Shown here: positions 29,320 to 29,646 of the stretch, piece by piece
How positions within the stretch are numbered: position 1 is the stretch's first letter
Layout: each line of letters opens with the position of its first letter
The notes under the pieces: model-generated
The model's input: the letters and a program-made list of their open reading frames with translations, nothing else
The model's database searches: none
Told to the model about the DNA's origin: nothing
Made by a program: the position numbers and the translations under genes
Assembly (NCBI GenBank): GCA_017656185.1
Contig: JACDOK010000002.1
Location: 8,768 to 72,767, forward strand
Source of the DNA: Peptococcaceae bacterium
GTDB taxonomy: Bacteria; Bacillota; Desulfotomaculia; Desulfotomaculales; JACDOK01
DNA length: 64,000 nt
Direction: 5' to 3'

Positions 29320-29646
29320 TTAGAATTTAGAATTGAGACATCAGCAGTGTGAAGTTCCCGGACCCTTAATGGTAAAACCACCACCCAGGAATGATTCACG
29401 GTAATCTACCGTCGCTCCTGAAAGATAGCGCATGGCGTCTTTGTCAATGATAAAGCGGAGATCCCCCGCTTCCACCAGGGTATCGTCCTCGCGTTTTGAC
29501 TCTTCCAGAGCCATACCGAAGTTCGGGCCGCCTCACCCGATACCCTGGATATACAACCTGATATACGCACCAGATCCATTCTTTTCAGCCAATATTTCCT
29601 TAAATTTTTCTTGAGCCTTATCCGTTACTTCTATCAAAATACTCAC
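29320..29646 (-). CDS. HesB/IscA (A-type Fe-S carrier) family protein with two in-frame TGA codons: candidate selenoprotein (or UGA-to-Cys recoded)
   Basis: It is absent from the ORF track because each TGA-bounded piece is under 60 aa.

My translation is (M)SILIEVTDKAQEKFKEILAEKNGSGAYIRLYIQGIG-[TGA 29533-35]-GGPNFGMALEESKREDDTLVEAGDLRFIIDKDAMRYLSGATVDYRESFLGGGFTIKGPGTSHC-[TGA 29341-43]-CLNSKF-TAA(29320-22).

The first TGA sits where the family has its first ligand Cys (G-C-S-G). The second sits in the middle position of the C-terminal C-G-C...SF motif. The start is GTG 29646 or TTG 29637. The minimal reading ends at 29341. Confidence 0.75.

What the first reader, a model, noticed from the sequence alone, without database searches (positions are those of the whole stretch)
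29320..29646. Unannotated HesB/IscA-type gene with two in-frame TGA codons at or next to Fe-S ligand cysteine positions
Seen in sequence: on the minus strand a single frame runs from GTG 29646 (or TTG 29637) to TAA 29320. It encodes a full-length A-type Fe-S carrier fold, interrupted only by TGA at 29533-35 and TGA at 29341-43.

The first TGA replaces the first conserved ligand Cys (family G-C-S-G; here G-I-G-TGA-G-G).

Reading through the second TGA gives ...GGGFTIKGPGTSH-C-[TGA]-C-LNSKF-stop. That tail recreates the family's C-terminal C-x-C...SF signature (E. coli IscA ends in CGCGESF). With a one-residue gap the TGA occupies the middle G position. Without a gap it falls on the first Cys. 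Stopping at that TGA would delete the last ligand Cys.

HesB-like proteins are a known prokaryotic selenoprotein family with one Sec. As far as I know, a second recoded UGA seven codons before the true stop is unusual.

The ORF track misses the gene because both halves are under 60 aa.
Basis: partly seen in the sequence, partly recalled or inferred. Interest (0 to 1): 0.85.

Follow-up and report, generated by a model that had tools for sequence, protein, structure and literature searches.

The report
HesB-like selenoprotein with one selenocysteine
This is a real, probably unannotated small selenoprotein gene of the known HesB/IscA-like family in which the first TGA encodes selenocysteine, while the second TGA is most likely the ordinary stop codon, so the proposed double recoding is not supported.

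Summary

The first TGA is very likely selenocysteine.
- It sits in the G-x-G-[U/C]-G-G-P column. Nine independent orthologs also have TGA there, and Desulfosporosinus homologs have Cys.
- It matches the published HesB-like motif UxGP.
- A hairpin with an invariant GG loop follows at a fixed distance in all 10 genes. 94% of its pair positions are paired and three pairs show compensatory changes.

The second TGA is most likely the normal stop.
- Seven of the nine Sec-type orthologs end immediately after the same invariant terminal Cys, with TAG x3, TGA x3 and TAA x1. The other two end C-S-C-TAA.
- Nothing after those stops resembles CLNSKF, and no stop is followed by a Cys codon.
- The only structure downstream is the bidirectional terminator.
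- 6.3% of random tails fit an A-type carrier profile as well as the observed tail.
- TGA ends 11 of 41 long ORFs in the window.

The product is therefore 98 aa (TTG 29637; Sec35; C-terminal Cys98).

The context is selenium-related: a LysR_Sec_metab regulator, a selC*-type tRNA-Cys(GCA), YedE and a YedF-like gene. This is a new member of a known kind.

The parts
29684..29712 (-). Promoter-like site (TTGACG, 17-nt spacer, TAAAAT) upstream of the gene
   Evidence: The consensus scan matches 10 of 12 positions. This is a consensus match only and is not proof of function.
29643..29650 (-). Shine-Dalgarno-like AGGGGTGA, 6 nt before TTG 29637
Evidence: Read directly from the sequence.
29341..29637 (-). 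HesB-like selenoprotein CDS: TTG start, 98 aa (Sec35, Cys98), stop TGA 29343-29341
   Evidence: PF01521 and TIGR00049 matches. The orthologs share the same start and the same end.
29533..29535 (-). UGA read as selenocysteine (residue 35), in the motif G-I-G-U-G-G-P
   Evidence: Nine independent orthologs have TGA in the same column. Homologs L001-L012 have Cys there. The motif matches the published family motif UxGP (PMC13188914).
29496..29514 (-). Bacterial SECIS hairpin: 7-bp helix whose 5' arm starts 18 nt after the UGA, apical loop U-GGA-A at 29507-29503
   Evidence: Across 10 genes, 94.3% of pair positions are paired against 24-43% when the partners are slid. Three pairs show compensatory changes, GG in the loop is invariant, and 0 of 500 shuffles reach the observed covariation score.
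29344..29346 (-). UGC codon for the invariant C-terminal Cys98
   Evidence: This Cys is invariant in the alignment of 20 Sec-type fragments, and most of them stop directly after it.
29341..29343 (-). Second TGA, interpreted as the true stop codon (context UGA-U)
   Evidence: Orthologs stop at this position with TAG x3, TGA x3 and TAA x1. In the window, 11 of 41 long ORFs end in TGA and 5 of those are followed by T.
29320..29340 (-). Post-stop 'CLNSKF-TAA' stretch, interpreted as 3' untranslated sequence
   Evidence: No ortholog has a counterpart. 6.3% of 20,000 random tails score at least as well against an A-type carrier profile.
29280..29309 (.). Bidirectional intrinsic terminator shared with the convergent yedF-like gene
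   Evidence: 13-bp stem with an A tract and a T tract. Its loop lies 44 nt after the second UGA and contains no GG.
26642..27529 (+). Context: selenium-metabolism-associated LysR regulator
   Evidence: NF040786 scores 289.6 bits against a cut-off of 250. A 50%-identical homolog lies next to the HesB(U) gene in L022 and L023.
27650..27744 (+). Context: selC*-type tRNA-Cys (tRNA-Sec-like architecture, anticodon GCA, U73, encoded CCA)
   Evidence: Rfam tRNA-Sec scores 52.6 bits against a gathering score of 47. ARAGORN calls Cys with anticodon GCA. The class is described in PMC5389517.
27981..29066 (+). Context: YedE-family putative selenium transporter
   Evidence: TIGR04112 scores 477 bits against a cut-off of 200.
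29047..29262 (+). Context: 71-aa TusA/SirA-like protein (matches only the N-terminal domain of YedF), overlapping the end of yedE
   Evidence: PF01206 E = 1.6e-17. TIGR03527 scores 53.5 bits, below its cut-off of 110. The YedE-TusA pair is conserved in L100-L104.

Best explanation
The locus is a monocistronic gene for a 98-residue HesB/IscA-like (A-type carrier fold) selenoprotein. Translation starts at TTG 29637. At UGA 29535-29533, SelB carrying Sec-tRNA(Sec) is recruited by a SECIS hairpin (29514-29496) and inserts selenocysteine where A-type carriers have their first ligand Cys (motif G-x-G-U-G-G-P). Translation then ends normally at UGA 29343-29341, directly after the invariant C-terminal Cys98. 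Transcription ends at the bidirectional terminator 29309-29280. The 'CLNSKF' codons after the stop are untranslated. Inferred, not shown: Sec35 and Cys98 act together as a Se/S ligand or redox pair, by analogy with the first Cys and the C-terminal Cys of IscA-type proteins. They would bind Fe or an Fe-S cluster, or relay a chalcogen. The repeated placement next to selenium genes suggests a role linked to selenium metabolism.
For: Fold and family:
- PF01521 E = 5e-13 spanning the first TGA.
- TIGR00049 scores 75.0 bits against a cut-off of 58.8 for the 98-aa form.
- The nearest solved structures are IscA-type proteins 1NWB, 2APN, 1X0G and 1S98.

Selenocysteine at the first TGA:
- Nine distinct orthologs have TGA in the same column (L014/15, L016-18, L019, L020, L021, L022, L023, L105-107, L108).
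- Homologs L001-L012 have Cys there.
- The published family motif is UxGP with one Sec (PMC13188914).
- The SECIS hairpin lies at a fixed distance in all 10 genes. It shows 94.3% pairing, three compensatory pairs and 0 of 500 shuffles reaching the observed covariation score.
- In L020 a synonymous GCC change is matched by a change that costs an E-to-G substitution.

Stop at the second TGA:
- The terminal Cys is invariant.
- Seven of the nine orthologs stop directly after it with TAG x3, TGA x3 and TAA x1. The other two end C-S-C-TAA.
- Sequence after those stops is unrelated and never begins with Cys.
- At 3 of 9, TGA is no more frequent at this position than among the window's long ORFs (11 of 41).
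- The only downstream hairpin is the terminator.

Selenium context:
- LysR_Sec_metab, YedE and a YedF-like gene in the window.
- selA-selB, selC-selA-selB or LysR_Sec_metab next to the orthologs.
Against: - The codon after the second TGA is Cys, and the tail ends S-K-F. This raises the TIGR00049 score by 6-8 bits. The hand-picked pattern C..S.F occurs in only 0.09% of random tails, although that pattern was chosen after seeing the sequence.
- Two orthologs (L022, L023) do end in C-S-C, so a C-x-C ending exists within the clade.
- No relative closer than about 59% identity on the 57-aa fragment, or 65% for the neighbouring YedE, exists in the collections. Lineage-specific conservation of the tail could therefore not be tested.
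- Part of the SECIS pairing persists in the Cys-type homologs (77% paired), so some of it reflects the peptide sequence or shared ancestry.
- Both curated Sec-HesB models score below their cut-offs.
- No expression or protein data are available.
Confidence: 0.88

Rival explanations
1. Double recoding. The second UGA is also decoded as Sec, or as Cys by an opal-reading tRNA, giving a 105-residue protein that ends ...H-C-U-C-L-N-S-K-F and restores a C-x-C..SF ligand tail.
For: A Cys codon follows the TGA, and the tail adds 6-8 bits to the TIGR00049 match. C-S-C endings exist in L022 and L023. Bacterial selenoproteins with 2-3 Sec residues are on record, and the name 'UXX-star' suggests a family with Sec close to the C-terminus (PMC13188914). 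A tRNA-Sec-like tRNA-Cys gene lies 1.6 kb away.
Against: - Seven of nine Sec-type orthologs end directly after the terminal Cys, with TAG x3 and TAA x1 among the stops. Nothing after any of the stops is conserved.
- No SECIS-like hairpin lies within 16-37 nt of the second UGA. The range is the bSECIS model of Zhang and Gladyshev, quoted from my own knowledge.
- The only hairpin is the A/T-flanked bidirectional terminator. Its loop is 44 nt downstream and lacks the GG seen in this family's SECIS.
- The neighbouring tRNA has anticodon GCA, which reads UGC/UGU and not UGA. Opal-reading selC* tRNAs are reported only together with cysS* in Desulfobacterales (PMC5389517).
- The profile-based significance of the tail is only p of about 0.06.
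Confidence: 0.04
2. Pseudogene. This would be an A-type Fe-S carrier gene inactivated by nonsense mutations, with neither TGA decoded.
For: There are two in-frame stops in a short gene. Neither half was called as a family member by standard ORF logic.
Against: - The same TGA column is kept in nine independent lineages, each with intact flanking reading frames.
- The SECIS hairpin is conserved and shows compensatory changes.
- A promoter-like site, a Shine-Dalgarno-like sequence and a terminator are all intact.
- Orthologs sit beside selA, selB and selC.
Confidence: 0.03
3. Incidental leakiness. The second UGA is the stop, but near-cognate read-through (Trp or Cys) occasionally extends a small fraction of chains by 7 residues to the TAA backstop, with no selected function.
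For: UGA is generally the leakiest stop codon (established knowledge). An in-frame TAA follows 7 codons later.
Against: The UGA-U context is an efficient termination context in E. coli (Poole, Brown and Tate 1995, from my own knowledge). Nothing indicates selection on the tail. This reading is compatible with the main explanation and is not a true alternative to it.
Confidence: 0.05

Closest known systems
HesB-like selenoprotein family (TIGR01911 / NF038090; Zhang et al. 2006, PMC1794560; review PMC13188914)
   Same: It has the PF01521 fold, about 100 residues and a single Sec replacing the first conserved Cys in the motif UxGP. A SECIS lies inside the coding region just downstream. Cys-containing sister forms occur in Desulfitobacteriaceae and retain a remnant SECIS.
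   Different: This gene and its nearest orthologs score below the curated cut-offs of both Sec-specific models: 55.1 against 66.35 and 66.4 against 85. They form a sub-clade marked by G-x-G-U-GGP(N/R)(F/Y)(G/A) and an invariant C-terminal Cys. That sub-clade often lies next to selA/selB/selC or LysR_Sec_metab.
Classical A-type Fe-S carriers IscA / SufA / ErpA (TIGR00049; PDB 1X0G, 1S98, 1R94)
   Same: The domain is the same and TIGR00049 scores above its cut-off. The first ligand position and a C-terminal Cys are both present.
   Different: Classical carriers have three Cys ligands (C..CGC, ending G-x-S-F). This protein has Sec in place of the first, only one C-terminal Cys and no CGCGxSF tail. 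The apparent tail beyond the stop is not conserved.
selC* tRNA-Cys (Mukai et al. 2017, PMC5389517). This concerns the neighbouring tRNA, not the gene itself.
   Same: It has a tRNA-Sec-like architecture above Rfam's tRNA-Sec threshold. It also has a long variable arm, an 8-bp acceptor stem, a 4-bp T stem with a bulge, U73 and a GCA anticodon.
   Different: The described delta-proteobacterial loci carry selB* and cysS* downstream, and some have a UCA anticodon. Here the tRNA lies between a LysR_Sec_metab regulator and yedE and has anticodon GCA, so it cannot account for decoding of either UGA.

Membership tests
A-type carrier / HesB-IscA superfamily (PF01521, TIGR00049) | Profile match above the curated cut-off | tested here: met
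   PF01521 scores 49.6 bits against 26.3. TIGR00049 scores 75.0 bits against 58.8 for the 98-aa form.
A-type carrier / HesB-IscA superfamily (PF01521, TIGR00049) | Three conserved Cys ligands (first Cys plus a C-terminal C-G-C) | tested here: not met
   Only Sec35 and Cys98 are present. The whole Sec-type clade has a single invariant terminal Cys. It therefore belongs to the fold family but is not a canonical three-Cys carrier.
HesB-like selenoprotein (literature definition) | In-frame UGA aligned with the first conserved Cys; motif UxGP | tested here: met
   The gene reads G-I-G-U-G-G-P. Cys occupies the same column in L001-L012. The motif is listed in PMC13188914.
HesB-like selenoprotein (literature definition) | [quoted passage not shown] | tested here: met
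   The helix is at 29514-29496 with loop UGGAA. Across 10 genes 94.3% of pair positions are paired and three pairs are compensatory. Caveat: Cys-type forms retain 77% pairing.
HesB-like selenoprotein (literature definition) | Both TGA-containing orthologs and Cys-containing homologs exist | tested here: met
   Nine distinct TGA orthologs and 11 Desulfosporosinus or Desulfitobacteriaceae Cys forms.
HesB-like selenoprotein (literature definition) | Sec incorporation demonstrated (75Se labelling or mass spectrometry) | not testable with these tools
   It has been shown for the M. maripaludis HesB-like protein only (PMC11097638).
NCBIfam TIGR01911 HesB_rel_seleno / NF038090 IscA_HesB_Se | Score at or above the curated cut-off | tested here: not met
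   The scores are 55.1 against 66.35 and 66.4 against 85. Orthologs from L014 and L016 score lower still. I therefore do not file the gene under these two curated subfamilies.
Multi-Sec bacterial selenoprotein | Second UGA conserved in orthologs and followed by its own SECIS | tested here: not met
   Among the orthologs, three have TAG, one has TAA and three have TGA at that position, and two extend to C-S-C-TAA. None has a conserved tail. No SECIS follows the second UGA.
selC* tRNA-Cys (neighbouring gene) | tRNA-Sec-like cloverleaf with U73 and a GCA or UCA anticodon | tested here: met
   Rfam RF01852 scores 52.6 bits against 47, and the alignment shows anticodon GCA, with a single U and then CCA after the acceptor stem. 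The definition is from PMC5389517. Aminoacylation was not tested.

The most novel reading that the evidence does not exclude
In this isolated Peptococcaceae lineage the second UGA could be conditionally decoded. The routes would be Sec using the terminator hairpin as a 3' SECIS, or Cys from an opal-reading selC*-type tRNA encoded elsewhere in the genome. The result would be a selenium-dependent C-U/C-C tail, analogous to the C-S-C endings of L022 and L023. The evidence does not strictly exclude this, because no close relatives and no expression data exist.
Probability: 0.04. Interest if true: 0.7.

Novelty: new member of a known kind. Interest (0 to 1): 0.27.

Why it matters
- The gene is a genuine selenoprotein that standard ORF calling splits into two short fragments.
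- Its sub-clade falls below the cut-offs of both curated Sec-HesB models, so it is probably missed systematically in annotation.
- The function of HesB-like selenoproteins is still unknown (PMC11097638). This sub-clade sits repeatedly beside selA/selB/selC, LysR_Sec_metab and YedE/YedF, which gives a testable lead that it works in selenium handling and not in general Fe-S assembly.
- The window also places a selC*-type tRNA-Cys inside a selenium locus, which may help with the open question of what those tRNAs do in Firmicutes.
- The striking part of the finding, a second recoded UGA, does not hold up.

Tried and rejected
1. The word-indexed protein search with the 108-aa read-through sequence found nothing. 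I switched to DNA-level searches and the exhaustive HMMER search.
A 4-sequence alignment worked, but it returned mostly classical Cys-type carriers and only four new Sec-type loci.
3. I looked for close relatives (70-95% identity) through the neighbouring YedE gene. None exist: the best non-self hit is 65% identical. The nearest YedE loci have neither the HesB gene nor the tRNA. The tail could therefore not be tested for purifying selection.
4. I considered the terminator hairpin as a SECIS for the second UGA and rejected it. Its loop is 44 nt downstream, it has no GG, and it is a bidirectional terminator with an A tract and a T tract.
5. I considered the neighbouring tRNA as the decoder of the second UGA and rejected it, because its anticodon is GCA.
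6. I considered the tail as a fossil of an ancestral CGCGxSF end. This is unlikely, because the whole Sec-type clade, at 40-59% identity, already ends at the Cys.
7. The Logan copy of the locus is 100% identical to the window and adds no information.
8. No selA or selB gene lies in the window.
9. I did not attempt structure prediction.

Full report
**Observation.** The minus-strand frame from 29646 to 29320 reads VSILIEVTDK...YIQGIG*GGPNFGMALEES...GGGFTIKGPGTSHC*CLNSKF*. The codons are TGA at 29535-29533, TGA at 29343-29341 and TAA at 29322-29320. The two halves are listed as separate ORFs of 37 and 57 aa. With Sec written as Cys, one PF01521 match (E = 5e-13) spans the first TGA. TIGR00049 scores above its curated cut-off.

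The start codon is more likely TTG 29637 than GTG 29646. The GTG lies inside a Shine-Dalgarno-like AGGGGTGA located 6 nt before the TTG. The orthologs also begin M-I-N-V-T-D or M-L-E-I-T-D, where this gene reads (M)-I-E-V-T-D.

**First TGA.** Twelve reference-genome loci, mostly Desulfosporosinus at 45-51% identity, encode Cys forms. They have G-x-G-C-GGPNFGM exactly where this gene has G-I-G-TGA-GGPNFGM. An exhaustive HMMER search with the 57-aa fragment downstream of the TGA found many fragments of about 57 aa that start at the same Met.

I retrieved the DNA for nine distinct genes of this kind: L014/15, L016-18, L019, L020, L021, L022, L023, L105-107 and L108. All nine have TGA in the same column with open frames on both sides.

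A hairpin follows the UGA, with its 5' arm starting 18 nt after it, in all ten genes. Its form is U-G-R-C-Y-C-U, loop U-GG-A-A, then A-G-R-G-U-C-A.
- On the 10-sequence alignment, 94.3% of pair positions are paired, against 24-43% when the partners are slid.
- Three pairs carry compensatory changes.
- GG in the loop is invariant.
- No shuffle out of 500 reaches the observed covariation score.
- In L020 a synonymous change in the 5' arm is matched by a 3'-arm change that costs an E-to-G substitution.

The Cys-type homologs keep a weaker version of the hairpin: 77% paired overall, one at 3 of 7 pairs, and one that has lost the GG. This agrees with the published remnant SECIS in the Desulfitobacterium hafniense Cys form (PMC1794560). 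It also means that part of the pairing reflects the peptide sequence or common ancestry.

The published family motif is UxGP with one Sec (PMC13188914), and this gene reads U-G-G-P. I conclude that the first UGA encodes Sec. That conclusion is an inference from comparative evidence, because no expression data exist.

**Second TGA.** The terminal Cys is invariant in 20 Sec-type fragments, and most of them stop right after it. The DNA gives the following endings.

| Locus | Ending | What follows the stop |
|---|---|---|
| L014/15 | ...TSTC-TAG | unrelated sequence |
| L016-18 | ...TSQC-TAG | unrelated sequence |
| L020 (closest, 59%) | ...TSSC-TAG | unrelated sequence |
| L105-107 | ...GGSC-TAA | unrelated sequence |
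| L019 | ...GSTC-TGA | KRPAVQ... |
| L021 | ...SSTC-TGA | G, then stop |
| L108 | ...AYQC-TGA | QKVDR... |
| L022, L023 | ...GSCSC-TAA | unrelated sequence |

- TGA at this position (3 of 9) is no more frequent than TGA among the window's long ORFs (11 of 41, five of them followed by T).
- No ortholog has a Cys codon after the stop or anything resembling CLNSKF.
- The only structure downstream of the second UGA is a 13-bp hairpin flanked by an A tract and a T tract.
- That hairpin is a bidirectional terminator shared with the convergent yedF-like gene.
- Its loop lies 44 nt after the UGA and has no GG.
- Adding the tail raises the TIGR00049 score from 75.0 to 80.9-82.9 bits.
- Against an A-type carrier profile that I built from the fetched loci, 6.3% of 20,000 random post-stop tails drawn from this window score at least as well.
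- The stricter pattern C..S.F occurs in 0.09% of random tails, but it was defined after seeing the sequence.

The product is a 98-residue protein with Sec35 and a C-terminal Cys98.

**Context.**

| Coordinates | Strand | Feature | Evidence |
|---|---|---|---|
| 26642-27529 | + | LysR regulator above the curated cut-off for selenium-metabolism-associated LysR | NF040786, 289.6 vs 250 bits |
| 27650-27744 | + | 95-nt tRNA above Rfam's tRNA-Sec threshold, with anticodon GCA, U73 and CCA | 52.6 vs 47 bits |
| 27981-29066 | + | YedE-family putative selenium transporter | TIGR04112, 477 bits |
| 29047-29262 | + | 71-aa TusA/YedF-like protein | |
| 29637-29341 | - | HesB(U) gene, convergent on the above, with its own promoter-like site | |

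The tRNA fits the described selC* tRNA-Cys class (PMC5389517 and PMC7609411). Its GCA anticodon cannot read UGA.

Orthologs of the HesB(U) gene lie next to selA-selB (L014/15), selC-selA-selB (L016-18) or a LysR_Sec_metab gene (L022/L023, 297.8 bits). YedE, YedF and LysR_Se are published selenium-linked candidates (PMC5322559).

The source is an NCBI 'Peptococcaceae bacterium' MAG. It has no close relatives in the collections, and the next-best YedE is 65% identical.

**Mechanism.**
- Shown by comparison: the Sec/Cys correspondence, the SECIS, and the shared terminus.
- Inferred: SelB-dependent Sec insertion at residue 35 and normal termination after Cys98.
- Inferred by homology: Sec35 and Cys98 cooperate. 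In IscA-type structures, of which 1X0G, 1S98 and 1R94 are sequence relatives, the first Cys and the C-terminal Cys residues jointly hold the cluster. That point comes from my own knowledge of those structures.
- Open: whether the pair binds Fe-S or Fe, or forms a selenenylsulfide relay for selenium. The gene neighbourhoods favour a selenium-linked role. The function of HesB-like selenoproteins is stated to be unclear (PMC11097638).

**Comparison and novelty.** This is a new member of the known HesB-like selenoprotein kind. It belongs to a sub-clade that both curated Sec-specific NCBIfam models miss (55.1 against 66.35; 66.4 against 85). It is not a canonical three-Cys A-type carrier, and it is not a double-Sec protein.

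**Verdict.** Interest is modest. It rests on a likely annotation gap, a recurring link to selenium genes, and the neighbouring selC*-type tRNA.

Noticed in passing
window 27650-27744 (+): A 95-nt tRNA scores as tRNA-Sec in Rfam (52.6 bits against a gathering score of 47) but carries a Cys anticodon (GCA), U73 and an encoded CCA. This makes it a selC*-type tRNA-Cys (Mukai 2017). It lies between a selenium-associated LysR gene and yedE. That placement is not mentioned in the main text of the paper describing the class. The tRNA is absent upstream of the nearest YedE homologs (L100-L104).
   Followed up: partly
window 26642-27529 (+); L022 3258-4142 (-); L023 3258-4139 (-): The LysR regulator passes the curated 'selenium metabolism-associated LysR' model (289.6 bits). 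A 50%-identical homolog (297.8 bits in L022) sits directly beside the HesB(U) gene in two metagenomic loci. This suggests that HesB(U) belongs to that regulator's regulon.
   Followed up: partly
L014 1-2546, L015 252-3715, L016 3470-6934: Sec-type HesB orthologs lie immediately next to selA-selB, and in L016 next to a genuine tRNA-Sec (anticodon TCA) followed by selA-selB. This is a tight physical link between this sub-clade and the Sec-insertion machinery.
   Followed up: partly
window 29341-29637 (-) and orthologs in L014 and L016: The sub-clade scores below the curated cut-offs of both Sec-specific HesB models (TIGR01911 and NF038090). Together with the split ORF, this means it is probably left unannotated in many genomes.
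   Followed up: partly
L001-L011 (Desulfosporosinus and Desulfitobacteriaceae): The Cys-type homologs carry long Cys-rich C-terminal tails (for example CGGDCCSGCGGSC) and a partly decayed copy of the SECIS hairpin (77% paired). This is consistent with a past Sec-to-Cys conversion.
   Followed up: partly
window 29280-29309: A single 13-bp hairpin flanked by an A tract and a T tract serves as a bidirectional terminator for the convergent yedF-like and hesB genes.
   Followed up: yes
window 27745-27980: A 236-nt AT-rich gap lies between the selC*-type tRNA and the yedE start. It has no Rfam match, so a leader or regulatory element is possible, but I did not examine it.
   Followed up: no
window 29047-29262 (+) with 27981-29066 (+): The TusA/YedF-like gene overlaps the end of yedE by 20 nt and matches only the N-terminal third of the YedF model. 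The same overlapping YedE-TusA pair recurs in L100-L104.
   Followed up: partly
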